A stretch of 49,335 nucleotides of DNA, taken from the NCBI GenBank assembly GCA_947631075.1, contig CANRJU010000001.1:1-49335 (forward strand). Direction: 5' to 3'. The notes under the pieces were generated by a model. The model did no database searches and was not told the origin of the DNA. It saw nothing but the letters and a program-made list of their open reading frames with translations. Both the position numbers and the translations under genes were made by a program. Shown here piece after piece: positions 6,362-32,641 of the stretch. This DNA comes from an uncultured Lachnospiraceae bacterium (lineage in GTDB: Bacteria; Bacillota; Clostridia; Lachnospirales; Lachnospiraceae). Within the stretch, counting starts at the first letter, position 1. Each line of letters opens with the position of its first letter.

Positions 6362-6390
6362 ATTATATCATATCGTTTCAATCTTGTCGA
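6362..6390 (-). promoter_or_regulatory. SigA-type promoter upstream of the HATPase-HTH gene
   Basis: On the minus strand, TCGACA-17 bp-TATAAT with TGn. Confidence 0.55.
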
Positions 6391-7069: not shown

Positions 7070-7147
7070 AATTTCCTCCTGTTAGTTATTTCTTTTTCTT
7101 TCAAGCGTTCACTTTTCCTCATAGGTTCTGCACATAATCTATGTATA

Positions 7148-9914: not shown

Positions 9915-11321
9915 TTAATTTAATGAAAGACTGCTATCCAGAACCCGGATAATTTTCTGATTCATAGAATCATAGGAGTTCCAAATTTCATCTTCTGGCG
10001 CAATACCAATAAACTCTGCCAGCTTTTTTATCTTCTCCATAATCTCGCCTGGCAACAGCCCCTTTCTTTTTCTATTTGTCAAATATTGATTATCTGCGGA
10101 AACAAAACCTTTAGCATCCGTTTCTGTCAAGCGCGTCCACTTCTCAATCATGTCCTCCGTGACCGGAGTCATTGTGTGAGCCGCCCTGTTTCTGACCTTT
10201 TCCTCCACTATCCGCAGCTCCTCAATCAAAAGATTCAGCTTTTGATTTTTTGACAGGGCAAGAATCAAATCTTTAATATGCACGGAATACACCGGACCAT
10301 TATAATTAAATTGTCCTTGATACCTATCTTGCAAAATCCGCTCCGCCTCGCTGCCTTTTAATTTGTTCTTGTCCCATTTCCGCACCCCGTTCCACTCGAT
10401 ACAATATGTATCAATATCCGTATGACACTGTTTTTTTAACGCACGTTCCATCAGAGCAACAATCGGCGGCGTAATCGCCCTTACAAAATCGTCATAATTT
10501 CCGCGAAGCTTTTTTATCTGCAAACTCAGAAGATACTCCACCACAATCCTCTCTCCCTCGCTTCTGACGGGCATGGGCTGATATCCGATTTTTCCGGCAA
10601 TCTCATTGACGCGATACGCATTTAGTTCAGCTCTCGCCTTTGCCTGCTCCAAATACAGCAGACATTCCGGTGAAAGCTGCTCTTTCATCCCTTCCGCGAC
10701 CTGATAGGCCGCCGTATAATCATACGCCAGCAAATGCTTTTTTACAATATTGGCTTTCAGCAAAGAAGCCAGATTGACTGACTTCACAACCTGGCAGCGC
10801 GACGGAATATCCGGAAGGTTATCCTCATTGCACTCCCACTGCGCTTCCACCTCATACTCCTGCATATTCTCGTCCATGCGATTGCTGCTTTTCAGCGGAG
10901 TTGTCACCTGAATTGCCTGAAACGGAACCTCGGCCAAGGTAGACAGCACAACCAGGGCGTTCTTCATCGCCGGCGTCCCCGATGAAATATTAACATACAG
11001 CTCATCTTCTGGAAGCATCGTTTTCCTTATGTCCGTAATGCAGGTAATAAAATCCTGATAGAAAATTTCATGATCCTGCACATCTTTCAGGTCTTCACGA
11101 ATAATCAGTTCTGTGCGGAACGAATGACCGCACATTTTCCCCAGCTCATCCAAACAGTACAGGTAACGATTATCCCGTTTGTGATTTTCATACATTTCAA
11201 AAGACAGATACAAATACACCTTATCCGGGAGGTAATGCCTGCAAATATGGAGCAGCGAGCCATCCCTGTAATTTCTGATTGGATCCGAGCCTCCCACCGG
11301 CGAAAATAAAATTCTGCTCAT
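9915..11321 (-). CDS. csm6: Type III-A CRISPR-associated CARF-HEPN ribonuclease Csm6
   Basis: N-terminus ILFSPVGGSDPI..RDGSLLHICRHY, CARF NISSGTPAM, and HEPN RNRAAH (RxxxxH). Confidence 0.9.
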   Translation of the reverse strand: MSRILFSPVGGSDPIRNYRDGSLLHICRHYLPDKVYLYLSFEMYENHKRDNRYLYCLDELGKMCGHSFRTELIIREDLKDVQDHEIFYQDFITCITDIRKTMLPEDELYVNISSGTPAMKNALVVLSTLAEVPFQAIQVTTPLKSSNRMDENMQEYEVEAQWECNEDNLPDIPSRCQVVKSVNLASLLKANIVKKHLLAYDYTAAYQVAEGMKEQLSPECLLYLEQAKARAELNAYRVNEIAGKIGYQPMPVRSEGERIVVEYLLSLQIKKLRGNYDDFVRAITPPIVALMERALKKQCHTDIDTYCIEWNGVRKWDKNKLKGSEAERILQDRYQGQFNYNGPVYSVHIKDLILALSKNQKLNLLIEELRIVEEKVRNRAAHTMTPVTEDMIEKWTRLTETDAKGFVSADNQYLTNRKRKGLLPGEIMEKIKKLAEFIGIAPEDEIWNSYDSMNQKIIRVLDSSLSLN

Positions 11322-11349
11322 AAATATTCTCTCCTCATTATATGTTTAA

Positions 11350-11475
11350 TAAATAACATTTTTCTTTAATTTCAGGTCAGTTTTAATTGGCTTCTTTTAC
11401 TGATAGAATACATTTTTTCCGGCATATTGTCAATACGGTTTCCCGTTCCTTCTCGGGGGGCTATTCTTCTAAAAT
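11350..11475 (-). promoter_or_regulatory. csm6 promoter with a lone degenerate CRISPR repeat (copy of 32556-32678)
   Basis: TTGACA-17 bp-TATTCT on the minus strand; repeat relic gtttcccgttccttctcggggggctattcttctaaaat at 11438-11475; near-identical to the cas1 upstream region. Confidence 0.85.
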
Positions 11476-11669
11476 TCCGCATCATCTTTTAACACATAGT
11501 TGTCGAGATCTATCCCTCTCTTATTTTTCGCCATTTCTATTAACTTTTCCGGTGATGCCTTTTCTACATCAAAAGATTCCATTAAAGCAGCCCCAAATCC
11601 GCCTCCGAAATAGGCGCCATAACATTCCTGTTTCATATCTTCTCTTAATTTTTCGATGTCAATTTTCAT
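11469..11669 (-). CDS. Small hypothetical protein (66 aa), paralogue of the neighbouring gene
   Basis: GGAGG RBS before MKIDIEKLRED; shares an IxLRxD...DVxxASxExLIxxAK...DLxxY pattern with 11706..11969. Confidence 0.7.
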   Translation of the reverse strand: MKIDIEKLREDMKQECYGAYFGGGFGAALMESFDVEKASPEKLIEMAKNKRGIDLDNYVLKDDAEF

Positions 11670-11705
11670 TGTTTTTTCCTCCATAATATTTTTTTGATAC
11701 CATCA

Positions 11706-11969
11706 TCATATTAACGGATTATCAAACCAATCAATGCGCATTTCTTCCCTTGTTTCTCTTTTTTTACTATTATTAGTATTGCTTTTTTTTCTGTACTTGT
11801 TCAAATCAAATTTATTTTTTTTTGCTAATTTTATTAGTTCTTCGGAAGATGCTGTTTTTACATCAATCACATCCATCATTGCAATCGGGGACGCCATAAA
11901 CATTGCAGATGTAAAATAATCCTCCAAATCCTTTCTTAATCTGATAAAATCAAAATTGTTATTAACCAT
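11706..11969 (-). CDS. Small hypothetical protein (87 aa), paralogue of the neighbouring gene
   Basis: AAGGAGG RBS; same motif pattern as the adjacent ORF. Confidence 0.7.
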   Translation of the reverse strand: MVNNNFDFIRLRKDLEDYFTSAMFMASPIAMMDVIDVKTASSEELIKLAKKNKFDLNKYRKKSNTNNSKKRETREEMRIDWFDNPLI

Positions 11970-11996
11970 ATGACAAACCTCCTTCTATAACATGCT

Positions 11997-13352
11997 CTAC
12001 TTCACACGAAAAATTATTTGACCTTTGTTGTTTATACTTCTACTCACTAATCCATCTTCTTCTAAAGAAAATAAAATTTGGTAAATTCTCAACTTGCTTA
12101 AATCTTTAATCAATATTATCTTATCCTTTCTATTCGGATTAATTGTTCTGTTACGTTTTATTAACTCATACATTTTTCTTCTTGCACATGAATATGAATT
12201 ATTTCTATTCATATCAGTTAATCCACACTTACTATTAGTAACTCGATACTTATTTTTGCTTAATGATGGAGTATTTCTTTTTATTATACTGGAAATTTTT
12301 TCTTTAATATCTTTTGGATTGGTAGGCATTTTAAATGATTGTTCTAACTCTAATATTTTCTTTTTGTATTCGTTATCAAATCTTTCTATAATCTCCTCTC
12401 TTTTCTTTTTATAATCCGTATTAGTATTTGTAATTTCCAACCTAATTTTTTCTATTTTATGTTTGTTGATATCAATTTCATTTAATAATTTATTCTTTTG
12501 ACGAAATTTTAATATCCCCAATATGAATAATTCATCCTCTTTAATCATGTTTTCTTTTTCCACTAATTCAATGTTCTTTTGGAAATCCGCTATAATTTCA
12601 TCATTTCCCTTTTTTAGTATATCTATCTGTTCATTTTTTAATGACTCACATTCTTCTTCAATTTTTTTTCGTTCAAATTCCAATTCTTCTTGAATTTCCT
12701 TGATTTCATTTTTATATATTTTCTGTTCTTCTTTCAAATCTCCTAATATTTCAGATAAAAAAATTTTATTATTTTCTTCTTCCTTTTTTCTTTTTTTTAC
12801 TACTTGTGGATCTTTTTCATATTCTCGTTTCCACCAACGCTTAATATCATTTAATTCATTCGGAATATCATAAACAAATCTTCCCAAATCCCGATAAAAT
12901 GAACTATATTTGAAAGAATCATATTCTAAAGCAAGCCCAAAAAAAGTATTAAATGATAAACTCAAATCAGAAAACGCATCGAATACATCTCCTACAATAT
13001 CATTTATGCCTTCTTTTAATAAATAATTTGCACCTTGCTTTAATAATTTTTTCCCTTCTCTGTCTAATTCAGTCAAAAAATCATCGTATTTACATCCATA
13101 TGACCTTGCCACCTGTTTTATGTTTTTCATTTCCCATTTTAATTCATATTCTGATTTTATTTTTTTGCTCTCTAAACCACTACTGTATTCATCTCGAGTA
13201 AATTCCCAATCTTCCCTAAGTCTTTTTAAATTTTTTTTTGCCTGCTTTAAAAATTCATCACAGTACTCCTTCAAATCATTTTCTTCCTGTTTAGTATCTT
13301 TGGTATTATTTTCTTTAAAATCACCGTTGCTATTTCCTGATATCTTTTTCAT
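11997..13352 (-). CDS. Very AT-rich coiled-coil hypothetical protein, possible C-terminal wHTH
   Basis: Long K/E-rich ORF; start placed at the ATG after GGAGG (the track extends it to 13391); the C-terminus ILFSLEEDGLVSR looks wHTH-like. Confidence 0.65.
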   Translation of the reverse strand: MKKISGNSNGDFKENNTKDTKQEENDLKEYCDEFLKQAKKNLKRLREDWEFTRDEYSSGLESKKIKSEYELKWEMKNIKQVARSYGCKYDDFLTELDREGKKLLKQGANYLLKEGINDIVGDVFDAFSDLSLSFNTFFGLALEYDSFKYSSFYRDLGRFVYDIPNELNDIKRWWKREYEKDPQVVKKRKKEEENNKIFLSEILGDLKEEQKIYKNEIKEIQEELEFERKKIEEECESLKNEQIDILKKGNDEIIADFQKNIELVEKENMIKEDELFILGILKFRQKNKLLNEIDINKHKIEKIRLEITNTNTDYKKKREEIIERFDNEYKKKILELEQSFKMPTNPKDIKEKISSIIKRNTPSLSKNKYRVTNSKCGLTDMNRNNSYSCARRKMYELIKRNRTINPNRKDKIILIKDLSKLRIYQILFSLEEDGLVSRSINNKGQIIFRVK

Positions 13353-13432
13353 TGTTTTCCTCCATACTGTTGTTTTTGATAATAACTTCATATTAAAATC
13401 TCCTAGTCAGAACATGCCTATCTACTCAACTG

Positions 13433-16400
13433 TCAAAAAACGGTAACCTTTCCTTTTTCAAATTCCTCGTTAGTTATTGGCTCAAGTTCACCCGCATAAT
13501 TCTCCAAAAAATCATAAGCATACTTTCTGTTCAGCTTATCATGAATCTTCTGGTTATAATAATTTCTCAGGCAGCTATAGCAGGAAGGCGAGCAGTTGCA
13601 TCCTTTAGTGATAGCGATTGCCTTATCGACAACCTGACGAAACTTGCCCCCGTCTTCTGTAACCATTCGTCTCACATGACCAGCACCTCCTGCTACCGCA
13701 TCATAAAGAACAATTGAATAAATCAGTCTGTTATCATAAACGATTTTATGCAGGCATCCTTTGATGTCATTACGCTCGATATCCAAAACAGACGATAAAG
13801 CTTCCAGAAGAGCGTACATAACAGACAACATCACATCCTGACTGTCGGCCTGGGGAGTAGCAAATACCAGACGAACAACATCTGTCCTAAACACATGACA
13901 AAGTTTGTTCTTAACAAGTTTAACTTCACACTTCTTTCCCCAGGGTGTAGTATGTATTCGTTTCAATGTGTGCTGATGAGAATTAAAGCTTGCATCCTCC
14001 ATATTCTCTGTCGTACTCTCTGCATAACCACAATGAGGGCAAACATAAAAATCATCCTTGCAGACAACCATCAGAGAATCATTGATGGATGTCTCCATCT
14101 GGAAACGATTACCGTCATTCATTACAAAGGCGTACTTCTGCATGATTTGTCGCTGAGCATCGCCAATATAGAAATCATCGCTCCGATACACTTTGTCCGG
14201 CTTACGCATCGGAACATCCTTAGGCTTCGCATCTGCAACAAAACCTTTACGCGGTTCAATAGCCTGCTTCCACCTAATCCTAGGGATAATCTCATGGCAG
14301 GAAACACATTCCTCTCCTGAAGAATCCGGCTCCATAAATCTATGATTCCAGGTCTGACAGGAGGGATTTTCGCATTGTGCAATGTAGGCAGTTTCCCAAT
14401 CCTGGCCCGTAGTTTGCGGAAGCTTACGAATATATCTACTTGTGTACAGTTTACCATCTGCAACTACCTGTGCATCTGGAGCATACTCAGAAATAGCAAG
14501 CTGCAGATCGCGTACCATTTGCAATTTCCTATCCGTTGATGAGTTGGCATTCTGATATAGTTCCACCGTATCAACAGGAAAGCCGTACTTCGGCAAAACG
14601 TTGTTTCTTACGAGAAATTCAATCAACTCATTGCGTCCGCGGTTATCATCTTTACCACGTCGATAAGACCACAGTTTTTTTTCGACTGCAGCCGCCTCCT
14701 GTGTGAGCCCCTTTTTAAGCAGTCCATTATATTCGTCAATATAATATTGCACTGTTTGACGAAATTCATCTACAGCAATTTTCAGAACTCCATCATCTCC
14801 AATCAACTTATCAATCCAGGAATAATCAGTGATTCCCATAATGGAGTGCATATTTTCTGGAATAGATGCTTTCAAAATTTCTTTCAGATGCTCAGGCTTA
14901 CTCCTCAGATAAGCGCAAAGCCGTTCCCACCCATCTCCATTTAGAAATACATCAGCGTTATTAGCATTATAAACATCCACCTGTTTTGCAAAGAAATCAC
15001 TTAATGCAACCGCAAAGATATGACGAAGAATCACCTTCTCATTTCTTACAGTGAAAAGTGGGACACCAATCTTTCCAGTAATCATATTTTCTGGATTTTT
15101 GTAATAGGTGAAATCGTGCGAGCTCAGCTTTGAATACGTCAATGAAAAGGCGGCTGCATTCTTTCCACGCCCTGCGCGACCTGCTCTCTGCACATAGTTT
15201 GCCGGTGAAGGCGGCATATTTCGCAAATAAACCGTTTCAAGGTCACCGACATCGACGCCCATTTCAAAAGTCGTTGAGCAACTCAGAGCATTGATTTCCT
15301 TGTTTACAAACATCTCCTGATACTTCTGCTGTTCTTCCCGACCAAGCTGAGCTGTATGCTCCTTGATATGCAACGGCTGCATCAAACTAGATTGATAAAG
15401 TTTTGCATAGTGATTGTCTTCCAATAAACTTGCATGTGTAATCTGTTTCAGATGCCCTCCACATTTCAATGTTGTACACATGCCCTTACAATTGATCATG
15501 CTGGTTTTGCCGCAAACATCACAGACATAGATAGGCACATCTTCCGTCCCAGCGCCGATTGTAAAACGCTCGGCGCTGAAATAAAACTCATCATTGCCTG
15601 CGGTAGAAAGCGGTTCTTCTCCCCTGAGAACCTCATCCCAGTAAATCTGCAAAAGCTCATTTGCTGATGCCTCGTCCAAATTCAAAACCTTCATTACCCT
15701 TTTCAAGCGCCCATTTTTAAGCAGATTACCGTTTTTTCTGATAGCCGAAGACCACCCGGCAAGATAAGATTTTTTCTTGTCCTTATCCAAATCCTTGCAG
15801 CGCTTTACACGTTTTGCTTTTGCTGTATAGAAAATATACTCCCGATCATCATCTGTCAGTTCACAGTCACCCTCGATGGCACCGTGATAAACAATATCCA
15901 TCGCCAACAGATCAAATAGCGCCTTCATATCCTGAATATTCTGACCGTAAGCTTCTGCCACACCAGCCATCACTTCTTCGCTATTGCCCTTATAGTTGAA
16001 TTTAATAATACCCATAGATACAAGACTGGTGCTTCTGCGGGCATTTGCCATCTCATTGAGGACTGCAATCCAAGCGTTCTTTCTGCTAATAGCTGTAAGG
16101 TTTTCTGTTCCCTTATCGCCAGGTTCTGCAAATGTCCTGCAGGAATCGAAATAAGCAGTCAGTTCATCTACAAAATGCTGAATCTCCCAGGGATGCGCAG
16201 CCATATTATCGCGATTCTTATCAACAACATGCCAAATTCCACGCCGGCGAAGGAATTCACTATAAGAAGCTGTCATATAAGAAGCGAAGAAGGCTGCCTC
16301 ACCACGACTGTCAGAAAAAGACAGAAACTGTCTCTTTCTTTTGATAATATCTACCTGCGCCGACTGTTTTGCAGAACTAAAAAGCCCCCTTTTGCTACCA

Positions 16401-18292
16401 GCTTCCGGACGCTTACTCTTCAGAACCTTCTCGCTCTCCGGCAATTCCTCAAAGAGTGAAGTTCCAAGTACCGCTGTAGCAGCATCGTAGCCAAGATAAA
16501 ATGTCTTGAAATTTCCAAAGTTACAGCTTGGGCATTTCCCATCGCCACGGACTCCGTTTTTCTTTGCCTTGCGAACTCTGACGTAATGATTGAGGCCACA
16601 GGTACACGGCAAATCTGATTTCAGACTCTCATGTATGAGAGCACCGCACTTAGAGCACAGCAAGTAATCATTTTTTCCGATTTCCCAGTTAGCATCTTCC
16701 TCATCTTCCTCACCATCCAGATCGGTATCATGGCTGTCACGAAGTAAATAGTATTCCATATTCAAATCATAAGAATCACATGCAAATTCCAGCTTACCAT
16801 CTATCTCACGACCTGCTACAGCAATACGTCCACAATCGTCACATATAGCACATTCAAATACTTTCCATCCTTCTCCGTTAATCATCGTATTACGATTGCG
16901 GTTCAGTATCAGTTTCTTGTGCTGTCCAAGTGTAATATATGCGCCCTCGAGTGCTTTAACGAACATGTGATAACGTGCCTTAATGAGAGCAGACTTGTTC
17001 TTAGCAGCCTGTGCCGCCACACTAATAATATTTACAACATCCTGTTCCGTAACATCGTGCGTTTCTCTTAAAGCTCCGGTAATTTCCGGAATCGTCATCG
17101 GTCGGCAAGTAATGTTGCGCAATTGACGATATACAGATGCACATACACAGAGATCATACAGAAACTCCGCATCCGACTGTTCGTCTGAAATATCCATACC
17201 ATAATCTTCTGCAATTACATTCAGCGGCTTCTTCGGATCAACAATATCTGCAAACACGGAAAGTGGAATATTCTTCGAAGGTTTATCATACGAAGGCACC
17301 ACACTCTGTGAACGGATAATATCTTCTTCCCGGAATCTTGCATTACAAAGTGTGTCAGCGAATTTAACGATATCCTCGTCAGCTTCTTTTCCGCCAAGTG
17401 TTGCGCTAGTAAGAATGTGCAGCACATTTTCAGGATTGCTGATTCTGGCCTTGAGACGCTTTAAAAGCAGGGAGGTTTCCATTCCTGTTGTGCCGCGATA
17501 AATATGTGCTTCATCAAGGACAAGAAATCGCAGCTTTGCCCCTGAAAAGACAAGGTCATCTTTCGGTCGGAGCATCATATACTCTAGCATGGCATAATTT
17601 GTCACAAGAATATGCGGCGGCGTTTTCTGCATCTGATCCCGAGAAATGATTTCATTTTTCAGTGGCTTGAGCGGATAACCATTAGCCGTCTTATATATCT
17701 TTCCATATTCTGCAATGCCATCCTGCTCATTTTGTTTGGTACTGCTGTTATAGACGCCAAAGGTAATATCCGGGTAACTTTTGAGTAAATTACGGAGTCG
17801 TTTCATCTGATCGTTCGCCAATGCATTCATGGGATAAATCAGAATTGCCCGAACGCCGGAGGTTAATGTACCTTTTTCTGCTTCTCTGAGCAAATGATTA
17901 ATAATAGGGATTATGAAACATTCCGTCTTACCTGAACCTGTACCCGTCGTAACAATCAGATTTTTGCCTTGGTTTGTTTTTCTGAGTGCATTTTCCTGGT
18001 GAAGATAAAGCCCTCTATTAATCTGAATTTCTTTTTCACCGTCAGGTATATTGCCCTCCAGTATTTTGAATAGAGGGGAAGCCTCGCCTTCCTCAATCAT
18101 TTGCGCCAGGCTCTTGCCTGTTTTATAAGAATCGCTCACATCAAGGTATGGTCCTTTTGAGACCGCACCATCGGCCTGCAATGCAGAAACAAACTGCGCC
18201 GCATATTCCCTGTCAGAAATATGAAACAACGTAGAGATGTATCCAATAAATTCATTTTTAATTTTTTCGGCTGCCAAAATTGGACTGAACAT
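13433..18292 (-). CDS. Large DEAD/DEAH SF2 helicase with DUF1998 zinc domain (Druantia DruE-like)
   Basis: TGTGSGKT, YPMNALANDQ, LDEAH, TSAT, FSDSR, TTFEMGVDVG and QRAGRAGR motifs, several CxxC pairs, and C-terminal YDAVAGGAG...CNC..SCYSC; 1619 aa. Confidence 0.85.
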   Translation of the reverse strand: MFSPILAAEKIKNEFIGYISTLFHISDREYAAQFVSALQADGAVSKGPYLDVSDSYKTGKSLAQMIEEGEASPLFKILEGNIPDGEKEIQINRGLYLHQENALRKTNQGKNLIVTTGTGSGKTECFIIPIINHLLREAEKGTLTSGVRAILIYPMNALANDQMKRLRNLLKSYPDITFGVYNSSTKQNEQDGIAEYGKIYKTANGYPLKPLKNEIISRDQMQKTPPHILVTNYAMLEYMMLRPKDDLVFSGAKLRFLVLDEAHIYRGTTGMETSLLLKRLKARISNPENVLHILTSATLGGKEADEDIVKFADTLCNARFREEDIIRSQSVVPSYDKPSKNIPLSVFADIVDPKKPLNVIAEDYGMDISDEQSDAEFLYDLCVCASVYRQLRNITCRPMTIPEITGALRETHDVTEQDVVNIISVAAQAAKNKSALIKARYHMFVKALEGAYITLGQHKKLILNRNRNTMINGEGWKVFECAICDDCGRIAVAGREIDGKLEFACDSYDLNMEYYLLRDSHDTDLDGEEDEEDANWEIGKNDYLLCSKCGALIHESLKSDLPCTCGLNHYVRVRKAKKNGVRGDGKCPSCNFGNFKTFYLGYDAATAVLGTSLFEELPESEKVLKSKRPEAGSKRGLFSSAKQSAQVDIIKRKRQFLSFSDSRGEAAFFASYMTASYSEFLRRRGIWHVVDKNRDNMAAHPWEIQHFVDELTAYFDSCRTFAEPGDKGTENLTAISRKNAWIAVLNEMANARRSTSLVSMGIIKFNYKGNSEEVMAGVAEAYGQNIQDMKALFDLLAMDIVYHGAIEGDCELTDDDREYIFYTAKAKRVKRCKDLDKDKKKSYLAGWSSAIRKNGNLLKNGRLKRVMKVLNLDEASANELLQIYWDEVLRGEEPLSTAGNDEFYFSAERFTIGAGTEDVPIYVCDVCGKTSMINCKGMCTTLKCGGHLKQITHASLLEDNHYAKLYQSSLMQPLHIKEHTAQLGREEQQKYQEMFVNKEINALSCSTTFEMGVDVGDLETVYLRNMPPSPANYVQRAGRAGRGKNAAAFSLTYSKLSSHDFTYYKNPENMITGKIGVPLFTVRNEKVILRHIFAVALSDFFAKQVDVYNANNADVFLNGDGWERLCAYLRSKPEHLKEILKASIPENMHSIMGITDYSWIDKLIGDDGVLKIAVDEFRQTVQYYIDEYNGLLKKGLTQEAAAVEKKLWSYRRGKDDNRGRNELIEFLVRNNVLPKYGFPVDTVELYQNANSSTDRKLQMVRDLQLAISEYAPDAQVVADGKLYTSRYIRKLPQTTGQDWETAYIAQCENPSCQTWNHRFMEPDSSGEECVSCHEIIPRIRWKQAIEPRKGFVADAKPKDVPMRKPDKVYRSDDFYIGDAQRQIMQKYAFVMNDGNRFQMETSINDSLMVVCKDDFYVCPHCGYAESTTENMEDASFNSHQHTLKRIHTTPWGKKCEVKLVKNKLCHVFRTDVVRLVFATPQADSQDVMLSVMYALLEALSSVLDIERNDIKGCLHKIVYDNRLIYSIVLYDAVAGGAGHVRRMVTEDGGKFRQVVDKAIAITKGCNCSPSCYSCLRNYYNQKIHDKLNRKYAYDFLENYAGELEPITNEEFEKGKVTVF

Positions 18293-18294
18293 AC

Positions 18295-21210
18295 TTATAT
18301 CCTTTCCGTCCGATACGAATACAGATCAGCGTTTGCATAGGTATGCTTGTTTTTCTTTGTGTACTCGCGATCTGTCAGCGCATAGACTGTATTTTCTAAA
18401 TATTTATCATAGTAATGGTAATAATAGAGGCCGTCACCATCTGAATCGGTTATATAAAGAACTGTGTCGCCAACATAAACAATTCGTACTGGATTAACCA
18501 TCAATTTCGTCACACCTTTCTTATTTGTGTGACTATCGAATGAGAACTCGTATCTCTCACCATTATATCCTGTGGTATACATCACGCCACTATAAACCGG
18601 ACAATATCCCTCAGAAGTGTCCTCCATTCCCTGAAATTCTATCTTATCAATATAACAGGTTCTGATTGATATATGACCAGCGCCTTCATTAAACTCATCT
18701 GTAATTGAATCAATTACAATTCTGCGATTTCTAAAACGAAGCAGGTTCTGATCGCCAACAATACAATCTCCTTCTGCTATAACTTCTTTCACCGTTTTAA
18801 ACAAACCGCCAGAAATAATGCTAATCTCGTAATGATAATTTCCGATTGGCATATCTTCCGGGATTTCGACAAACTCTGTGTTTTTGTCTAATTTAAATTC
18901 AATCGGAGCATCAGCCTCTCCATATAATGATAAGGCAAATGTCCGGTCGGATTTACCAATAAAAGTACCACCCTGATTCCAGAAGAGCTTATGGCCTTCT
19001 GTCCAGAACTCCGGCCTGCCAAGAAATCGCTCCTTATAACAAATCCTAGCTAACTGATATTCATTGCTCTGCCTGCTACCGGCAACTCTCATTTCAACAT
19101 CCGCAAGAGAAAAGTTTTCAGCATTACAGAAAGATTGAAGCACATTACCAATCGTAACCACCCCCTGGCCATCATACATAACATCTTTTCCGCCAACAAA
19201 AAACTTTACATCTATCTTCGGCGGCGCTGAAATTCTTAACAGACTTGTCTGCGGAATATCTCCTATATACCATGCCTGAGCAGAACCATCCAGCCACGTC
19301 CCACTGGTTTCTTGAACATCAATCCTCGGAATAGCGGCATGCAGTTCGCCGTTTCTATATGGAATCCGAACTTCTCTTGCATTTGCATCAAATGACACGC
19401 TTTCCGAAAAATCATCAATGTTAATCCGATACTCAGCATCCTGATAATCAGAAGCAGAATAATAAAATTCTCTGTTGAAGCTGCACGATGCTTGCCTAAC
19501 AAGAACAAAGCTCCTATCAAACATCAAATGTTCATTTGCCAGATTAATAACCTGCAGCCTGCAGGTGTCCTTATCTCCCAACAGAGGAAATGTAAAGACC
19601 AACCCATTATCCGAAGAAAAAAGCGACGAGAAATCTATCCGTTGTTCATCTCGAAGAATTACATACTTTTGAAGATAATCCAAGTTGCCCAGAATAATCC
19701 TGCAAACACTATTATAATATGCGAAATAACATTCCTGTCCGTCTACTTCTACACACGGAAGCATCGAAGACTCGGAAGGCGCAATCACACGGATGTCTAT
19801 TCCATTTTCACTGTCGAAGGCAACTAATCTATCATCAACCGATATTACATAACCATCTTTCAACTCAAGAAAAAATGCCTGTAATCCAAAATTCTTAAAT
19901 CCGTCAATTTTCGTAATTTCAGCATTCTCCGCTTTCAGTACAGATGCTCTTGGTATGACAAGCGTATAATTATCTTTTTTTATCTGGCTGGTATTATATT
20001 CATTGCTGCCATAAAAAATCCAAGTTCTGCGATTAAGTGTATCCTTGGAATTATAAATTTCTTCGTCGTTACAGGTTATTATAACCTGGATGCCTATTGC
20101 CTCAGTGCCGGTAGGAACCGCTGGAAGAGATAATGATACGCCATTCAAAGTTTTACCCAGCTCATTTCCGTACCAGCTCATATTTTGCTGACAGGCAATG
20201 GAACCATTATAATAAACAGCTACAACAGCCCTGTTGATTTTTTCGCTCTTTAATCGAATATCCGGCAAAACAAGCCGAATATCTGTTTCATTTTTCAAAA
20301 TGTATTTTGCGTGAATACGAGAATAATCAATTGCAACGTCCCTCATCCCACTCAGGCTTTGACGCTCCGCACACTTTGTATTGGCAATCGCCGTAATCTT
20401 CTCCTTAAACCATTCTTCACAAAGCAGTTCTTCATAAGTCTTAGCCGATTTATCTCCCGAATTAACCATAGCATCTATTTTTAATATGAGTTTTTCAAAC
20501 AGCCCTCTGGTAAACATTGGTCTAAATTGAACAAGTTTCCGAATACCTTCCTGGAAAGAATATGCTTTCGAGCTAATCGTCAGTTCTATATCTTCGCTGC
20601 CATCTCCGGCTAATTTTTGCTGAAGAGACCGAATCATAACTTCAAGAAGAGGATCTCCAGGGATTATCTTCCAATTCAAATTGTTTTTATAAAAATCGAA
20701 CAAAAAATCAAAAAGTGCCATCCACGATTTTCGAGTAGCAAGAGCATGAATGACTGCTGTGGACTTAAATGCGCGACCGTTTGATCCCTCTATAAAAAGA
20801 CGGTGATTCTTCTTCATTGCACTTTCTAACGAAGACTGCAAAAGATGTACTACAGAACCGCTTGCGTCACGGTATCCGAATTGAAGAGCAATATAATTCC
20901 AGAAGTTACCGTTCTCTTCATTTTTCCAGTTCTTGGCATTATTGACCAAAGCCAAAGTTATCTGCATCTTCGCACGCAGAGACAACTCTATCTCCGGATA
21001 TCGTAAGACTGTATCAATGTATTTTCTGGAATATGCATTTAGCTTATCAAGTTCTTTCTGCTTTATGATTTTGCTGCCAATTAACGGATACTGTGCAAAT
21101 ACCTTCTCCTCAAATTTCCCTTTACTCTGACGCACCTCCATGTCTTTTTCCGAGACATCTACCACCATATCCGATCTCTCAGTAGTGCGTGCAAACTTTC
21201 TTTTATCCAT
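18295..21210 (-). CDS. Large hypothetical protein, helicase partner (DruH-like position)
   Basis: ~970 aa ORF ending 2 bp before the helicase start; helical-looking N-terminus (FWNYIALQFG, FDFLFDFY) and beta-rich remainder; start uncertain (track gives 21282). Confidence 0.7.
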   Translation of the reverse strand: MDKRKFARTTERSDMVVDVSEKDMEVRQSKGKFEEKVFAQYPLIGSKIIKQKELDKLNAYSRKYIDTVLRYPEIELSLRAKMQITLALVNNAKNWKNEENGNFWNYIALQFGYRDASGSVVHLLQSSLESAMKKNHRLFIEGSNGRAFKSTAVIHALATRKSWMALFDFLFDFYKNNLNWKIIPGDPLLEVMIRSLQQKLAGDGSEDIELTISSKAYSFQEGIRKLVQFRPMFTRGLFEKLILKIDAMVNSGDKSAKTYEELLCEEWFKEKITAIANTKCAERQSLSGMRDVAIDYSRIHAKYILKNETDIRLVLPDIRLKSEKINRAVVAVYYNGSIACQQNMSWYGNELGKTLNGVSLSLPAVPTGTEAIGIQVIITCNDEEIYNSKDTLNRRTWIFYGSNEYNTSQIKKDNYTLVIPRASVLKAENAEITKIDGFKNFGLQAFFLELKDGYVISVDDRLVAFDSENGIDIRVIAPSESSMLPCVEVDGQECYFAYYNSVCRIILGNLDYLQKYVILRDEQRIDFSSLFSSDNGLVFTFPLLGDKDTCRLQVINLANEHLMFDRSFVLVRQASCSFNREFYYSASDYQDAEYRINIDDFSESVSFDANAREVRIPYRNGELHAAIPRIDVQETSGTWLDGSAQAWYIGDIPQTSLLRISAPPKIDVKFFVGGKDVMYDGQGVVTIGNVLQSFCNAENFSLADVEMRVAGSRQSNEYQLARICYKERFLGRPEFWTEGHKLFWNQGGTFIGKSDRTFALSLYGEADAPIEFKLDKNTEFVEIPEDMPIGNYHYEISIISGGLFKTVKEVIAEGDCIVGDQNLLRFRNRRIVIDSITDEFNEGAGHISIRTCYIDKIEFQGMEDTSEGYCPVYSGVMYTTGYNGERYEFSFDSHTNKKGVTKLMVNPVRIVYVGDTVLYITDSDGDGLYYYHYYDKYLENTVYALTDREYTKKNKHTYANADLYSYRTERI

Positions 21211-21302
21211 TTTTTCATCACCAGATTTCTTTATAGTATATGCGAGGACGGGGCTTTTCAGGAACAACGCCCTCTTTATCACAATGTTTATAAGAGTTTA
21301 TT

Positions 21303-22748
21303 TCATTCGTCACCAATGTCAGAAAGCGACTTATAATCCATTACCTCCTGGGCCAATTCAGGATCATCAATAACTTCAAGGGCTTTCTCATACCAGTAAA
21401 TAGCTTTCTTCATGCTTTTATCTACGCCACATCCTTCCCGATAACAAAGACCAAGCAACTTCATCGCAGTTCCATTTCCCTGCTCAGCAGATTTCATGTA
21501 GAGTTCAAATCCTTTTTTCGGATTTGTGGGAACATCGTCTCCCACAAGATAAATAGAACCAAGCATGTATTGACAAATATCATTACCAAGTTCAGCTCCT
21601 CGCCTATAATGTTCAATTGCCTTTCCCATATCTGAAGCAACGCCTAGTCCTTTTTCATACGCATAACCAAGTACCCATTCCGCAGCAACGATGCCAGCAG
21701 CCTCCGCTTCCTCGGCGAGCGCAACACTCTTTTGATTAAAAATGTCATAAAAATCATCTCCCAGCATTGTGCCGAGCCACAAATATGCGCGAGCCAGATC
21801 TACTTTCGCAGACAGATCGCCTGTTGAAATTTTTTCCTTTAAATCAACAATTTCACGAAGTCTTGATGCATACAACACGGCTTCTTCATTACCATTCAAT
21901 AGGGCTCTTCCTATCCAATGTAAAGCCTGTTCAAAATTCTGCTCAACACCCTGGCCTTTAATGAATAAGATTGCCAAATTGAAACATCCCATAGGATTAT
22001 CAAGTTCAGCCAATTTGAAAAGCCAATAAGCCGCCTTCCCCGGATTCGACTCAATGCCATTATTCTCATCACCATTCAAATAAGCGACTGCAACTTGTTC
22101 CATTGCAATTTCATTGCACGCCTCTGCTGCTTCCAGTTTTTTTTCAAAGGACATCTTTTCAATCATTTCAGTATTTTTCATTTCATCCGGATATGGCCTC
22201 ATCTCCTGTCTTTTTAGTGTAGTTGACAATATACACACCAAAGAAGGACGCTTCATACCGGATACTCGTTCGAATATCATATCGCTCTTTTGACGTTTAA
22301 CCAGTATCCCCTCTGTATTCATATCTAAATTTGCAAACTGATCCATCAGATTATTATTAACGATATACTCTCTAAGTATAACGCTCGCTTTTAAAGCATT
22401 TATCATTATCCCTGAAATAGCCGCGCTATGCAAGACAATATCATCTTTAACAATATCTGGATCTTTACCATTAGTATGGAGCGCAATGATTAAAGCTGCA
22501 TTATCCTCATCGTAACAATTATGTTCACTGCGATAATAGAAAGAAAGTATAATATCATCACCTGCTTTGATTGTCAAATGGTATGGCACACTGATAAAAT
22601 CAAAGCTGCAATCGTCGATACTGCTAAATTTTCTATATATTTCTCGTTCATCATAATTTCGTTCAACAAACTTTTCGGTGAACCAAAGACAATCATCCGA
22701 CTCTATGAAAAAATGAAGTCCTTTAACTAAAGTCTTTTCCTCTGCCAT
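21303..22748 (-). CDS. Sel1-like repeat protein with unknown N-terminal domain
   Basis: Repeated LG..Y..G.GV..D..KA..WY patterns in the C-terminal half; start placed after the GGAGG RBS. Confidence 0.85.
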   Translation of the reverse strand: MAEEKTLVKGLHFFIESDDCLWFTEKFVERNYDEREIYRKFSSIDDCSFDFISVPYHLTIKAGDDIILSFYYRSEHNCYDEDNAALIIALHTNGKDPDIVKDDIVLHSAAISGIMINALKASVILREYIVNNNLMDQFANLDMNTEGILVKRQKSDMIFERVSGMKRPSLVCILSTTLKRQEMRPYPDEMKNTEMIEKMSFEKKLEAAEACNEIAMEQVAVAYLNGDENNGIESNPGKAAYWLFKLAELDNPMGCFNLAILFIKGQGVEQNFEQALHWIGRALLNGNEEAVLYASRLREIVDLKEKISTGDLSAKVDLARAYLWLGTMLGDDFYDIFNQKSVALAEEAEAAGIVAAEWVLGYAYEKGLGVASDMGKAIEHYRRGAELGNDICQYMLGSIYLVGDDVPTNPKKGFELYMKSAEQGNGTAMKLLGLCYREGCGVDKSMKKAIYWYEKALEVIDDPELAQEVMDYKSLSDIGDE

Positions 22749-22835
22749 AGCATAACCCTCCCTAAACCTCAAATCTGCTCAAATCAATCTCCATACTTAT
22801 TACCTTCTGGTAGTATCTGAGTGTCCCAAAAAGAC

Positions 22836-23777
22836 TCATAATCCCGTCCCTTTGTCAATCACTTCTATCATATTTCCCTGCCCCCTCAACCAAATATCAA
22901 CGCCATCTCCATACACTTCGGCCTTAATCGTCCAGCCGGTCTCATCATGTTCTATGATCTCCGCCGTCGGAAAACGATCCAGCACAGCCTCAATGCTCAG
23001 GCCTTTGTACTTAAACTTGATTGTCCTCAATTCACCGCCAAACATGAATTGAATCCTCTTTCGGAATTCGCCCTCCTGAAAGCGGTCGGCATATGGTACA
23101 CGAAAATGCTCGTCCAGAATTTCATACTCTGCAATGCGGTCTATCCTATAAATCGTAGGGAATGGCCGTTTGGGAACATCAGGCATTTCTTCGCTGACAG
23201 AGATATAAGCGCAAAGATAAAAGTAGTATTCCGAAAACATGATTCCTACTGGCTGAATCAGCCGTTTCACCTTGTCCGGCTCTTTTAGCTTCTGATAGCG
23301 AATACGCATCAACCGATGTTCATACACCGCACTGCCAATATTCCACATGTCATCCACAAATTTTCTACCGTGATGCGGCTCCAGATAATGAAACTTCTCA
23401 TTACTGATCAAATTCTGCACCTGCTTATAATTTGGGTAAGGCACGCAGCACTGCAAAAGTTTGTCAATGATCGGATACATTTCCTCTTTAACAAGCGACC
23501 GACTTTCAAGAAGAATCTTGCACACCGTAAGAATTTCGCTGTTTGTTAGAGTATTCCTTCTGCTCTGAACCAGAACGTAACCCTTCTGAGAGCGATCATA
23601 AATCAGTTCCCGATTAGATTCCGGATCATTTGCAAAGTAAGCCCGGATATCGTCGATATCCCGCTGAATAGTTCTTTCATTGACTCCGTATCGGGCAGCC
23701 TCGTCTGCTTTAACCAGAATTTCTCCGTCCATAATGCGGTTATACAGACTGATTATTCTTGCAACTTTTTTATCCAT
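22836..23777 (-). CDS. WYL-domain transcriptional regulator (HTH-WYL-WCX)
   Basis: HTH YGVNERTIQRDIDDIR; WYL PVGIMFSEYYFYL...YRIDRI; C-terminal WLRGQG. Confidence 0.92.
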   Translation of the reverse strand: MDKKVARIISLYNRIMDGEILVKADEAARYGVNERTIQRDIDDIRAYFANDPESNRELIYDRSQKGYVLVQSRRNTLTNSEILTVCKILLESRSLVKEEMYPIIDKLLQCCVPYPNYKQVQNLISNEKFHYLEPHHGRKFVDDMWNIGSAVYEHRLMRIRYQKLKEPDKVKRLIQPVGIMFSEYYFYLCAYISVSEEMPDVPKRPFPTIYRIDRIAEYEILDEHFRVPYADRFQEGEFRKRIQFMFGGELRTIKFKYKGLSIEAVLDRFPTAEIIEHDETGWTIKAEVYGDGVDIWLRGQGNMIEVIDKGTGL

Positions 23778-23840
23778 TCATCACCATCCTCTCTCGCTAT
23801 AACTGCCTCCATACTATACATATTTTAGCAAATAGGCACT

Positions 23841-23853
23841 GACAGAATCTGTC
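23841..23853. promoter_or_regulatory. Palindromic putative WYL operator
   Basis: GACAGA-A-TCTGTC perfect inverted repeat 13 bp upstream of a TAAAAT box in front of the WYL gene. Confidence 0.5.
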
Positions 23854-23870
23854 TATCTTGAAATTTTCTT

Positions 23871-25268
23871 TTACCAATTATCCAAATCTGACAACAGATC
23901 GTTGACAGAATTTTTTTCGCTGCCGCCATCCATCTCCTTTAATTTTAGGTAAACCCGTGCCGTAGTAACCGCATCTGCCAATGCTCTGTGAGCCTGCGGG
24001 TTTTCTATATCAAGTTTCTCCGACAGTTCTTCCAGGGAGACAGTCCTGGCATCTATTATGTCTAGCTGCTCTTTAAACTGAGTCGCGTAACGCTTTACAT
24101 CAAAATATTTATTCTGAATTTTAATACGTGCGTACCGGCCGGCTCTGACCATAAATTTGCTGTCAAAAGCCATACAGTTGAAGCCAAGCAAAATATCGTC
24201 TCCGGCAAATTTCATGAAATCCTCAAAGACCTCCCACATTTCCCGGGCATCTTTGACGTCATCCGCTGTTATACCGGTAAGCTGCTGAATCTCATCGGAG
24301 ATCTTCTGTTTATACGGCTTTACAAGTTCCTGAAAGATAAATTCAGCCTTTTCTATAACCTGCCCGCCACATACGCGAATAGCGCCAATCTCGATGATAG
24401 AATCTTTTGAGGAACTGAGCCCAGTCGTTTCCAAATCAAAGGCTACAAAGCTGTCAAAATCCGCCTCTCGCGTTTCTACTGGATTAGGGTATTGATCCAG
24501 TGGGATTGGCGTCGGCGCTTTCTTTCTCGGTTTGGGCATGGCAGCCTCAATGCCAATACTCTCCAGAAAATCAACATATTTCTGCCTTACCTCATCACGA
24601 TTTTCTCTCGGATTTGGCATATATTCCGGTTTACCTGCTTCTGCCTTTTCACGCTGTTTTTTGTTCCTCTCAGCGCAGCTCTGCATGGTCTGAACCGCGG
24701 ATGTGTCATTTTCAAACCGTCGCAGCGCATCGGCAATCACCTCTCCCGCAGCGTCATATCTGCGGGTATTTATGTAAAATTCCGCCAAGTTATAACAGGC
24801 CTGCCAGGGAATATCCTCAGATTCACTAAGCCGGGAAGCAATCTTGTCTGCTGCCGAATAATCATAGTCCATATAGAAGGCTCCAAGAGCAATGCCGTGA
24901 AGCCTGTTCTTCTCGTCCTCCGTCAGACCGTCATTATCTTTTATCGTTTCGTAAATCTCATAAAACCACTGTCTGCTGTCTTTTGGCACATTGGAAGTAG
25001 ATGCGCTTGAAAAAGCAGCAGCAATCGCCAGTACTCTTTGATATTCTTTTCTTGGTGTCGGCAGATAATCACTGACTGCAAATACCAGATTTCTCAAATT
25101 AACAGAACTGTTGAACTCGCTGCATAGGTTTTCCCAGATTGGATTTTCTCCGGAACCCGGTTTATAAGCAATCAATTCCTGACACAACGCTTCTAGATCT
25201 GCTCCGTTTCTGCAACTGTCACACAGGCAGAAATCATTTTCTTTCCCGCACTTTATACATATAGCCAT
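23871..25268 (-). CDS. Zn-finger / TPR-like / DEDDh 3'-5' exonuclease fusion
   Basis: N-terminal CIKC..CDSC; central helical TPR-like region; FDLETTG, FNCMAFD and HRALADA Exo motifs; start after AAGGAGG. Confidence 0.85.
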   Translation of the reverse strand: MAICIKCGKENDFCLCDSCRNGADLEALCQELIAYKPGSGENPIWENLCSEFNSSVNLRNLVFAVSDYLPTPRKEYQRVLAIAAAFSSASTSNVPKDSRQWFYEIYETIKDNDGLTEDEKNRLHGIALGAFYMDYDYSAADKIASRLSESEDIPWQACYNLAEFYINTRRYDAAGEVIADALRRFENDTSAVQTMQSCAERNKKQREKAEAGKPEYMPNPRENRDEVRQKYVDFLESIGIEAAMPKPRKKAPTPIPLDQYPNPVETREADFDSFVAFDLETTGLSSSKDSIIEIGAIRVCGGQVIEKAEFIFQELVKPYKQKISDEIQQLTGITADDVKDAREMWEVFEDFMKFAGDDILLGFNCMAFDSKFMVRAGRYARIKIQNKYFDVKRYATQFKEQLDIIDARTVSLEELSEKLDIENPQAHRALADAVTTARVYLKLKEMDGGSEKNSVNDLLSDLDNW

Positions 25269-25282
25269 AGTGTTGTTCCTCC

Positions 25283-28117: not shown

Positions 28118-28913
28118 AACGGACTCCTATGGCCTTCATAAAGTCTTTAATCTGATTCATCTGGTACTGGGTTGCATAGATTTTCATGGCAACGCCACCA
28201 TCCACATTCGCTGGCACCTGCTGATCCACGACGGGGGAGGGATTCTGTGTTCCAACGGCATCAGCCGCTTTTTCTACTGTTGTAAGTCCGGCTGCAGATG
28301 CGGCTTTCGTAAGCTCAACATTCTTTTCCTTTACTGCATCCATAGATAATGTCTCCACATAGACCTGCAGAAGACTTTCCTTAAAAGGTGATTTCATAGC
28401 TTTGATTTTTCTGATATCTTTATTGGCTTCGTCAATGGCAATCTGTATGCCTTCTTCGTACTTGGCGCGTCCGGTAGATGCATTTACCCACTTCTTGTCA
28501 AAGAGCTTTGGATAAAGCGGCTTAGCCATATCGCCAAGAACTCCTGCCTTGCGGTCATAATATTTTCTGACTTCTCGCTCCTTAGCTTCTTTCTGGCGAT
28601 TTTCATAATCTTTTACGCTATCGTCGATTGCCTTACGCTGATTTTCCACCATATCCGCCAATTCCTTGATTTGGGGCTCTATTTTCTCATAGGGAGCAAG
28701 GCAACGTGCCTTGTAAGCCTTTCTAGCGTCTTCTATAACCTTCTTTGCCTTATTCAGAGTAGTACGATCCTTCTTTGCGTCTTTGATCGAAGCATCCGTA
28801 TATGCGATAGACGCATAGGCTTTCAATTCTCTCTTTAGCGCCGTGCGAAGTCGAGAAAAATCCCACTTGCTTATATCTGTATTTTCCAGTTGAATAATCT
28901 GCAAATCGCTCAT
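28104..28913 (-). CDS. DUF1351-family coiled-coil protein
   Basis: YTDASIKDAKKDRTTLNKAKKVIEDARKAYK is typical of phage-type DUF1351; overlaps the helicase start by 14 bp. Confidence 0.75.
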   Translation of the reverse strand: MSDLQIIQLENTDISKWDFSRLRTALKRELKAYASIAYTDASIKDAKKDRTTLNKAKKVIEDARKAYKARCLAPYEKIEPQIKELADMVENQRKAIDDSVKDYENRQKEAKEREVRKYYDRKAGVLGDMAKPLYPKLFDKKWVNASTGRAKYEEGIQIAIDEANKDIRKIKAMKSPFKESLLQVYVETLSMDAVKEKNVELTKAASAAGLTTVEKAADAVGTQNPSPVVDQQVPANVDGGVAMKIYATQYQMNQIKDFMKAIGVRYEFI

Positions 28914-29006
28914 AACAATCTCCCTTACTGTATTATTTTTCAAATTTGTCTTTCCGCATCCAAATCAAATTTTTCCACCAAAACTATATACACCTATATA
29001 AATATA

Positions 29007-29035
29007 ATTTTATCATAATTTGCCGAATCCTGCAA
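29007..29035 (-). promoter_or_regulatory. SigA-type promoter of the DUF1351 operon
   Basis: TTGCAG-17 bp-TAAAAT with TGn. Confidence 0.55.
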
Positions 29036-29124
29036 GAAGATTGTAATTTTATGTTTTCCTGATTTTCTGTGTTACTATTGGAATTAAAAATAATGTTTAG
29101 TAAGAAATTAAATTACAACAATCA

Positions 29125-29153
29125 TTGAAAAATCATAAACCGAGTGGTATAAT
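29125..29153 (+). promoter_or_regulatory. SigA-type promoter of ligA
   Basis: TTGAAA-17 bp-TATAAT with TGn. Confidence 0.7.
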
Positions 29154-29190
29154 AGATACCAGAAATATATACAAGTGAAGGAGTTTCAAT

Positions 29191-31152: not shown

Positions 31153-31164
31153 AGGAAGCATCTG
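31135..31164. terminator. Hairpin over the ligA stop, probable terminator between convergent ligA and cas2
   Basis: CAGATGCTTCCT-ctttga-AGGAAGCATCTG 12-bp stem; weak U tract. Confidence 0.5.
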
Positions 31165-31196
31165 TATCTTATAGCCTCAGCATCCCCTCATTCGTT

Positions 31197-31514: not shown

Positions 31515-31528
31515 ATAATTTCCTTCCT

Positions 31529-32530: not shown

Positions 32531-32555
32531 CCCAGCCTCCTCATTGCAAGCTTGG

Positions 32556-32641
32556 TAAATAACATTTTCCTTTAGTTTCAGGTCAGTTTTAGACCTTTCT
32601 TTTACTGATAGAATACATTTTTTCCAGCATATTGTCAATAC
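32556..32641 (-). promoter_or_regulatory. cas1-cas2 promoter abutting the terminal repeat
   Basis: TTGACA-17 bp-TATTCT on the minus strand; duplicated upstream of csm6. Confidence 0.7.

What the first reader, a model, noticed from the sequence alone, without database searches (positions are those of the whole stretch)
11350..11475. Orphan csm6 carries a ~120-bp copy of the cas1 promoter plus a lone CRISPR repeat
Seen: 11350-11475 matches 32556-32678 in direct orientation (taaataacatttt..ttcaggtcagtttta..ttcttttactgatagaatacattttttcc.gcatattgtcaatacg..ttcccgt.cc.tctcggggg). Both copies hold TTGACA-17-TATTCT with a degenerate repeat ending ~5 bp upstream of the -35. The promoter core is almost invariant, whereas the csm6 copy has lost the CCCC-GAGA-GGGG stem. 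Inference: a repeat-plus-promoter cassette co-regulates the toxic effector and the adaptation genes 21 kb apart, or it is the relic of a second array whose trailer promoter was retained.
Basis: partly seen in the sequence, partly recalled or inferred. Interest (0 to 1): 0.8.

Follow-up and report, generated by a model that had tools for sequence, protein, structure and literature searches.

The report
Borrowed cas1 promoter rescues stranded csm6
A 145-bp copy of a CRISPR array's last repeat plus the predicted cas1 promoter sits in front of the csm6 gene, likely because a 20-kb block of defence genes split the cas operon and brought a spare promoter with it, the decayed repeat likely being a passenger.

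Summary
The match is real: 11331-11473 and 32537-32676 align over 145 columns at 85.5% (E 4e-39), the only two copies in the genome. The window holds a Lachnospiraceae type III-A locus: array, terminal repeat, predicted promoter, cas1, cas2, then a 19.85-kb block (second ligA, UvrD, WYL, Druantia-III-like genes), then the copy and csm6. A sister genome (about 96% identity) has cas2 and csm6 contiguous and lacks the block, so csm6 is not a true orphan but the cut-off end of the operon. The copy is 14-18% diverged from both cas1-side copies, and the extra ligA is 10% diverged from both native ones, which points to a related donor lineage. Both block ends carry the same ribosome-binding-site 9-mer. 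The promoter core is conserved (1 of 37 sites vary, against 24 of 103 outside). The repeat diverges as fast as the untranslated leader and has lost its hairpin. Best reading: promoter hand-over after an operon split, with a dead repeat as passenger. No second array, mini-array or guide target was found, and no RNA data were available. One other genus has leader-plus-repeat cassettes before csm6 and cas1, which keeps a regulatory reading alive at low odds.

The parts
11331..11473 (-). csm6-side cassette: relic repeat + predicted promoter + 5' untranslated leader + ribosome-binding site
   Evidence: 85.5% over 145 columns to 32537-32676; 81.8% to the cas1 cassette of sister genome L004/G461
11438..11473 (-). 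relic terminal repeat, hairpin lost (CCCC-GAGA-AGGA); 5' end overlaps the stop codon of the 71-aa ORF
11405..11433 (-). predicted sigma-70/A promoter TTGACA-17-TATTCT for csm6
   Evidence: 1 difference in 37 bases to the cas1 copy
11331..11339 (-). ribosome-binding-site 9-mer at the csm6-side end of the block
9915..11321 (-). csm6 (CARF + 6H + HEPN), 468 aa, intact
   Evidence: 98.4% nt to G461
11328..31181 (.). 19.85-kb block between cas2 and csm6, absent at this site in G461
11469..11969 (-). two small paralogous ORFs (71 and 87 aa) of no known family
13433..21282 (-). DruE-like helicase (13433-18292) and 995-aa YjiT/DruH-like protein (18295-21282): Druantia-III-like pair
21303..28943 (-). 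Sel1-repeat, WYL, DEDDh exonuclease, UvrD-PD(D/E)XK and DUF1351 genes
29191..31152 (+). second copy of ligA, about 90% to both native copies, convergent with cas2
31136..31163 (.). 12-bp-stem hairpin between cas2 and ligA, predicted barrier to cas1-cas2 read-through
   Evidence: not called by the terminator scan
31184..31192 (-). left-behind csm6 ribosome-binding-site 9-mer after the cas2 stop
   Evidence: matches the cas2-csm6 spacer of L004
31197..32530 (-). cas1 (31529-32530) and cas2 (31197-31541)
32537..32676 (-). cas1-side cassette: terminal repeat (32643-32678, stem intact), predicted promoter (32638-32610), leader and ribosome-binding site
   Evidence: 94% to L004
32643..35027 (-). CRISPR array, 34 repeats and 33 spacers; trailer on the cas1 side
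   Evidence: only the last spacer is also seen in L004
35028..41422 (-). array leader (35028-35160), csm5-csm2, cas10 (split by a stop codon) and cas6

Best explanation
The 145-bp element is a diverged homologue of the array-trailer repeat plus predicted cas1 promoter that likely now drives csm6, because a 19.85-kb block, likely acquired from a related lineage, separates csm6 from the cas1-cas2 transcript; the repeat in it has lost its hairpin and is likely a non-functional passenger. Shown: the homology, the block, the contiguous cas1-cas2-csm6 state in a sister genome, the divergence values, the stem loss. Inferred steps: (1) the ancestral unit was trailer repeat, promoter, cas1, cas2, csm6; (2) a donor copy of the trailer-promoter-leader segment, already attached to defence cargo and a ligA, was joined to the host csm6 at short look-alike sequence around the two ribosome-binding sites; (3) a convergent ligA and a hairpin now stop cas1-cas2 read-through, so csm6 depends on the imported promoter and selection keeps its core; (4) the repeat lies upstream of the -35 box, has no spacer left to release, and decays. 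Co-expression of csm6 with cas1-cas2 would follow from the shared promoter alone.
For: Sister genome L004/G461 (median fragment identity 95.7%, 174 of 342 fragments aligned) has cas2 and csm6 about 20 bp apart and matches the block only at ligA, on another contig, and at its own cas1 cassette. csm6 follows cas2 directly in 31 of 47 informative relative loci. cas1 cassettes of window and L004 are 94% alike, the csm6 copy 85.5% and 81.8%. Block ligA is 89.7% to the native copy and 90.4% to G461 over 564 bases, natives 92.7%. The 9-mer AATGAGG[A/G]G has 4 hits in the window: cas1 site, both block ends, and one elsewhere (1.5 expected per window). Variable sites across three copies: core 1 of 37, outside 24 of 103, Fisher p 0.005; repeat 8 of 38 vs leader 16 of 65, p 0.81. 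Stem kept in 32 of 33 scored array repeats and in both cas1-side terminal repeats (L004 changes the loop only), lost in the csm6 copy. The cassette-csm6 junction is bridged by a contig in run X1 and, with 3 differences, in run X5 of another study. Passages of 10.1101/2023.03.03.530964 call type III mini-arrays likely degraded and non-functional.
Against: No donor genome was found among 72 genomes of the genus, so the donor is inferred. Only one sister genome polarises the event. The pairwise test of core conservation is borderline (p 0.043; core vs leader alone 0.053) and the core boundary was chosen after seeing the alignment. No integrase or other mobility gene was recognised in the block. 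The cas2-ligA junction was not bridged by any listed contig. No terminator was called between the block genes and csm6, so read-through could also supply csm6. cas10 carries a stop codon in this assembly, so selection on csm6 may be relaxed in this strain. G139 has repeat-bearing cassettes before both csm6 and cas1.
Confidence: 0.65

Rival explanations
1. Same function, other history: the block and the promoter copy arose long ago in the common ancestor of the window and G461 lineages by duplication in place, and G461 later deleted the block, restoring cas2-csm6 contiguity.
For: The copy's divergence (14-18%) exceeds the between-genome divergence (6%), as an old duplication predicts; a 2-base overlap at the L004 junction fits a deletion as well as an insertion.
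Against: Needs two events with an exact restoration; the extra ligA is also an outgroup to both native copies; the block was not found, apart from ligA and short gene pieces, in 71 other genomes of the genus.
Confidence: 0.15
2. The repeat is a working regulatory part: Cas6 or Cas1-Cas2 recognises it, cutting csm6 RNA away from read-through transcripts of the defence block or tuning the promoter, so a repeat-plus-promoter module co-regulates effector and adaptation genes.
For: Same geometry kept in both copies; no terminator called upstream of csm6; an alternative 4-bp stem is predicted (-6.1 kcal/mol, z -0.88); in G139 three leader-plus-single-repeat cassettes precede csm6, cas1 and a methyltransferase-like gene; a repeat or array lies shortly before csm6 in 9 of 47 informative loci.
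Against: Repeat part varies as much as the leader (p 0.81) and the changes hit the stem; it lies upstream of the -35 box, outside the predicted transcript; no second repeat, spacer or target; the G139 cassettes have the opposite layout and no second case was found in 5 other genomes of its genus; 4 other split loci show no shared csm6/cas1 upstream sequence.
Confidence: 0.1
3. A second full array once stood before csm6 in this lineage and collapsed to its trailer.
For: Array-then-csm6 layouts exist in relatives (G220, G395, G080, L061, L142, L148); the relic keeps some consensus letters that both cas1-side terminal repeats have changed.
Against: No other repeat remnant in the block (best other score 26 vs 38), no leader homologue, the relic abuts an ORF stop, and the sister has no array here. 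The homology runs to the cas1 ribosome-binding site. It may hold for the donor, not for this site.
Confidence: 0.07
4. The arrangement is a chimera of the metagenome assembly.
For: Genome is a 395-contig assembly, 87.7% complete; the native ligA contig breaks at a 36-base run shared with the block copy; the cas2-ligA junction is not bridged in listed contigs.
Against: The cassette-csm6 junction is bridged in two runs from two studies; the two cassettes differ at about 18 places, too many for a collapsed repeat; both block ends fit the sister's junction to the base.
Confidence: 0.03

Closest known systems
Degraded stand-alone repeats and mini-arrays near type III loci (Shmakov et al., 10.1101/2023.03.03.530964; passages read)
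   Same: A repeat-like sequence outside the array at a type III locus, not conserved in position in a close relative, with no target.
   Different: Here it comes with a 145-bp homologue of the cas1 promoter, leader and ribosome-binding site, lies 21 kb from the array, and its origin can be tied to an operon split.
Regulatory mini-arrays / crRNA-like RNAs of type I systems (same paper; CreA and CreR names recalled)
   Same: Degenerate repeat next to a cas or toxic-gene promoter.
   Different: One repeat, no spacer, no PAM-flanked target; the locus is type III-A, whose complex binds RNA rather than promoter DNA (established knowledge).
Solitary repeat units of viruses (review PMC8616872; passages read)
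   Same: Single repeat, on DNA that looks horizontally acquired.
   Different: Hairpin lost, no phage or mobility genes recognised, no promoter placed to transcribe it; promoter pattern absent from viral contigs.
Internal promoters of type III-A operons (Pcas inside cas1 in Staphylococcus aureus, PMC12205988; abstract and outline read)
   Same: Downstream cas genes depend on a promoter at the cas1 end of the locus.
   Different: There the promoter is within cas1 and experimentally shown; here it is in the trailer, duplicated, and only predicted.
Promoter capture after insertion into an operon (general concept, recalled)
   Same: Inserted DNA ends in an outward promoter that feeds the cut-off gene.
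   Different: The captured promoter is a homologue of the operon's own promoter, tagged by a CRISPR repeat.

Membership tests
Regulatory CRISPR mini-array (crRNA-like RNA) | two repeats flanking a spacer | tested here: not met
   no second repeat upstream; best alignment score 18
Regulatory CRISPR mini-array (crRNA-like RNA) | partly complementary, PAM-flanked promoter target | tested here: not met
   only match in the genome is the same-sense cas1 copy; genome 87.7% complete
Regulatory CRISPR mini-array (crRNA-like RNA) | DNA-binding type I effector in the locus | tested here: not met
   locus is III-A; other contigs were not scanned for type I genes
Solitary repeat unit / RNA anti-CRISPR | intact Cas6-type hairpin | tested here: not met
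   canonical stem probability 0.00-0.02
Solitary repeat unit / RNA anti-CRISPR | carried by a virus or mobile element | tested here: inconclusive
   block looks foreign but no mobility gene recognised; no match in viral contigs or plasmids
Solitary repeat unit / RNA anti-CRISPR | expressed as a small RNA | not testable with these tools
   no RNA holder listed
CRISPR array trailer | homology to the terminal degenerate repeat and its downstream flank | tested here: met
CRISPR array trailer | adjacent array with spacers and leader | tested here: not met
   (met for the cas1-side copy only)
Sigma-70/A promoter | -35 and -10 boxes at 17-base spacing, conserved across copies | tested here: met
Sigma-70/A promoter | mapped transcription start | not testable with these tools
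   no RNA run available
Druantia type III (cargo) | DruE helicase | tested here: met
   PADLOC DruE3 E 6e-171, DruE1 E 1.9e-171
Druantia type III (cargo) | DruH (YjiT family) partner | tested here: inconclusive
   no profile hit; Atlas lead 0.91 to a cluster with YjiT_N in 11% of members, low recognition; DruH assigned to YjiT in PMC13192584

The most novel reading that the evidence does not exclude
Lachnospiraceae type III-A loci reuse repeat-tagged promoter cassettes (trailer repeat + promoter here; leader + single repeat, three times, in G139) as portable modules: they let defence cargo be inserted inside the cas operon while keeping csm6 under the same control as cas1-cas2, and the repeat is a Cas6 or Cas1-Cas2 handle that either processes the downstream mRNA or seeds the recombination.
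Probability: 0.12. Interest if true: 0.6.

Novelty: new member of a known kind. Interest (0 to 1): 0.27.

Why it matters
It is a clean, datable example of how a type III-A operon can survive insertion of a defence island: the cut-off effector gene likely keeps its expression through a homologue of the operon's own promoter. It also explains one 'stand-alone repeat' as a hitch-hiker and warns against reading such repeats as regulatory RNAs. It would matter more if repeat-tagged promoter cassettes proved to be a recurring, Cas-dependent device, for which G139 is the lead.

Tried and rejected
Genome-wide BLAST for more cassette, repeat or leader copies: none. DNA search of 60 relatives with the cassette: one 33-base hit at E 5.8e-5 in another family, treated as noise. 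Rfam at gathering threshold: 0 hits in the window. Promoter pattern in viral contigs: 0; cassette in plasmids: 0. Spacers against the own genome: no self-target beyond short chance matches. Palindrome over the -35 box as an operator: 62 of 724 TTG[A/T]CAA words in the genome extend the same way, 6 exact genome hits, rejected as ordinary. Folding of the whole cassette: no structure beyond shuffles (z -0.10 and -1.02). Trailer promoter as a general rule: a 10-of-12 promoter within 400 bases (often only about 150 available) of cas1 in 6 of 24 loci, not general at that threshold. No RNA holder listed. Run X5 has no cover at 11421-21267 and no listed contig spans cas2-ligA; at depth about 3 this says nothing. 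Atlas search with the 71-aa ORF: no named family; one relative in 300 family genomes, not next to CRISPR genes. Earlier-findings look-ups returned nothing. Literature searches listed no paper describing a duplicated cas1 promoter with a repeat before csm6; only listings and the passages named were seen, no supplements.

Full report
Observation. The two regions align in direct orientation at 11331-11473 and 32537-32676, 145 columns, 85.5% identity, E 4e-39; no third copy exists in the 2.85-Mb, 395-contig genome. Both carry TTGACA-17-TATTCT on the minus strand, four bases after a degenerate CRISPR repeat, and both end in the same ribosome-binding-site 9-mer.

Context. The window holds a type III-A locus on the minus strand: cas6, cas10 (split by a stop), csm2-csm5, leader, an array of 34 repeats, cas1, cas2. 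The degenerate repeats and the one spacer also seen in a relative lie at the cas1 end, so that end is the trailer, and the cas1-side repeat is simply the terminal repeat of the array. After cas2 come a convergent ligA, DUF1351, UvrD-PD(D/E)XK, a DEDDh exonuclease, WYL, Sel1, a 995-aa protein, a DruE-like helicase, a 464-aa ORF and two small paralogous ORFs, then the copy, csm6, a metallo-hydrolase and a PtuA/PtuB pair.

Relatives. The closest locus, L004 in genome G461 (record titled an uncultured Lachnospiraceae), has the same cas genes at 92-98% nucleotide identity and a genome background of median 95.7% (174 of 342 fragments from 19 contig stretches aligned). In it cas2 and csm6 are contiguous. 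The window matches L004 up to 31182 and again from 11327, which defines a 19.85-kb block. G461 matches the block only at ligA, on another contig in its housekeeping context, and at its own cas1 cassette. Among 50 distinct relative csm6 loci, 3 had no upstream sequence; of the other 47, csm6 follows cas2 in 31, an array or repeat in 9, and something else in 7 (L012 dropped as a duplicate of L005; L058 and L059 are close to L005 and not independent). So cas2-csm6 is the common state and the window is the derived one (inference by parsimony). In the 72 genomes of the genus only the window and one other (G485, same contig numbers and coordinates as G461) have this csm6 or a close cas1, so a single sister polarises the event.

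Origin of the copy. The cas1 cassettes of the window and L004 are 94% alike, in line with the genome background. The csm6 copy is 85.5% and 81.8% alike to them and keeps some repeat-consensus letters that both have changed. It is therefore unlikely to be a recent in-place duplicate. The block's ligA is a second copy: the native one sits on contig C26 in the same context as in G461, and over 564 bases the block copy is 89.7% and 90.4% alike to the two natives, which are 92.7% alike to each other. Both markers point to a third, related lineage as donor; none was found. At the junctions the sequence after the cas2 stop still holds the old csm6 ribosome-binding site, and the csm6 end holds the cas1-type one; the 9-mer AATGAGG[A/G]G occurs four times in the window, three of them at these sites. 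The first cas1 codons also share nine bases with the native csm6 start region. Either look-alike could have served as crossover point (inference). A natural parallel is L061, where an array is followed by a short cas1 stump and then csm6.

What is kept and what is lost. Across the three copies 1 of 37 core-promoter sites varies against 24 of 103 outside (Fisher p 0.005; boundary chosen after seeing the data; pairwise p 0.043). The repeat part (8 of 38) varies no less than the untranslated leader (16 of 65; p 0.81). The CCCC/GGGG stem is intact in 32 of 33 scored array repeats and in both cas1-side terminal repeats, where L004 changes only the loop, but has pairing probability 0.00-0.02 in the csm6 copy. 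From established Cas6 biology, the terminal repeat of an array must be cut to release the last crRNA, while a repeat with no spacer upstream has no such duty. The relic lies upstream of the -35 box and its 5' end overlaps the stop of the 71-aa ORF. There is no second repeat, no leader and no target. A 12-bp hairpin and the convergent ligA lie after cas2, so csm6 can hardly be reached from the cas1 promoter.

Is the arrangement real? A 2,284-base contig of run X1 matches 11289-13572 exactly, and a contig of run X5, from another study and with 3 differences, spans 11219-11369, across the csm6-cassette junction. X1 may be the source sample. X5 also holds pieces of 21666-28316. No listed contig bridges cas2-ligA.

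Results against. No donor, no mobility gene and no RNA data. No terminator was called between the block and csm6, so read-through is possible. cas10 has a stop at codon 180 in this assembly. In G139, of another genus, a roughly 150-base leader plus one repeat precedes csm6, cas1 and a methyltransferase-like gene (csm6-cas1 upstream score 111 against a shuffle maximum of 42). Four other loci tested the same way showed no shared upstream sequence, and five other genomes of the G139 genus gave no csm6 match. The G139 layout (repeat downstream of the leader) differs and may be emptied arrays.

Comparison with the literature. Passages of Shmakov et al. (10.1101/2023.03.03.530964) report mini-arrays near 10-14% of type III systems with no positional conservation and no targets, and judge them degraded. 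The element fails the tests for a regulatory mini-array and for a solitary repeat unit, and works like a captured promoter. Searches listed no paper on a duplicated cas1 promoter before csm6; supplements were not seen, and those of the Shmakov paper may list similar loci.

Verdict. Real feature, ordinary mechanism: likely promoter hand-over to csm6 after a defence block split the operon, with a decayed trailer repeat as passenger (0.65). Regulatory repeat 0.10. Interest 0.27.

Noticed in passing
G139:C72 (L125) about 860-1180, 2490-2830, 4230-4620: Three homologous leader-plus-single-repeat cassettes before csm6, cas1 and a methyltransferase-like gene in a III-A locus; the array proper is on another contig.
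   Followed up: partly
window 38352-40640: cas10 is split by a stop at codon 180, between the HD domain and the rest; intact in G461. Real mutation or assembly error not resolved.
   Followed up: partly
window 29191-31152: Second ligA, homologous to the native copies exactly from start to stop codon, with its own 11-of-12 promoter at 29125-29153.
   Followed up: partly
window 13433-21282: Druantia-III-like pair (DruE-like helicase plus YjiT/DruH-like lead) inside the cas locus.
   Followed up: partly
window 7148-9165: PtuA/PtuB (Septu-like) pair downstream of csm6 and the metallo-hydrolase, low GC, not matched in G461.
   Followed up: no
G375:C8 (L123) 6740-7800: Array, then a lone repeat, a promoter and a RelE/HigA-like pair (family judged from the sequence, not scanned), then a second degenerate repeat just before csm6: cargo inside a trailer.
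   Followed up: no
L061 about 700-960: Array followed by a roughly 150-base cas1 stump and then csm6.
   Followed up: no
window 31201-31229: Promoter-like GTGACA-17-TATTAT at the 3' end of cas2; in the contiguous state it would point at csm6.
   Followed up: no
window 11469-11969: Two small paralogous ORFs (38% identical over 55 aa) of no known family.
   Followed up: partly
window 6281-6381: About 100-base element with at least 7 copies at 85-94% in G461; REP- or MITE-like.
   Followed up: no
G461:C104 5677-5766: Short pieces matching both ends of the metallo-hydrolase gene lie joined about 2 kb from the gene itself, hinting at a recombination hotspot.
   Followed up: no
G000 contig C6 17354-17710: Partial cas1-like match (30% over 138 aa) elsewhere in the genome.
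   Followed up: no
window 33180-33213 and 33614-33648: Two spacers (numbers 25 and 19 from the leader) resemble each other, suggesting related targets.
   Followed up: no
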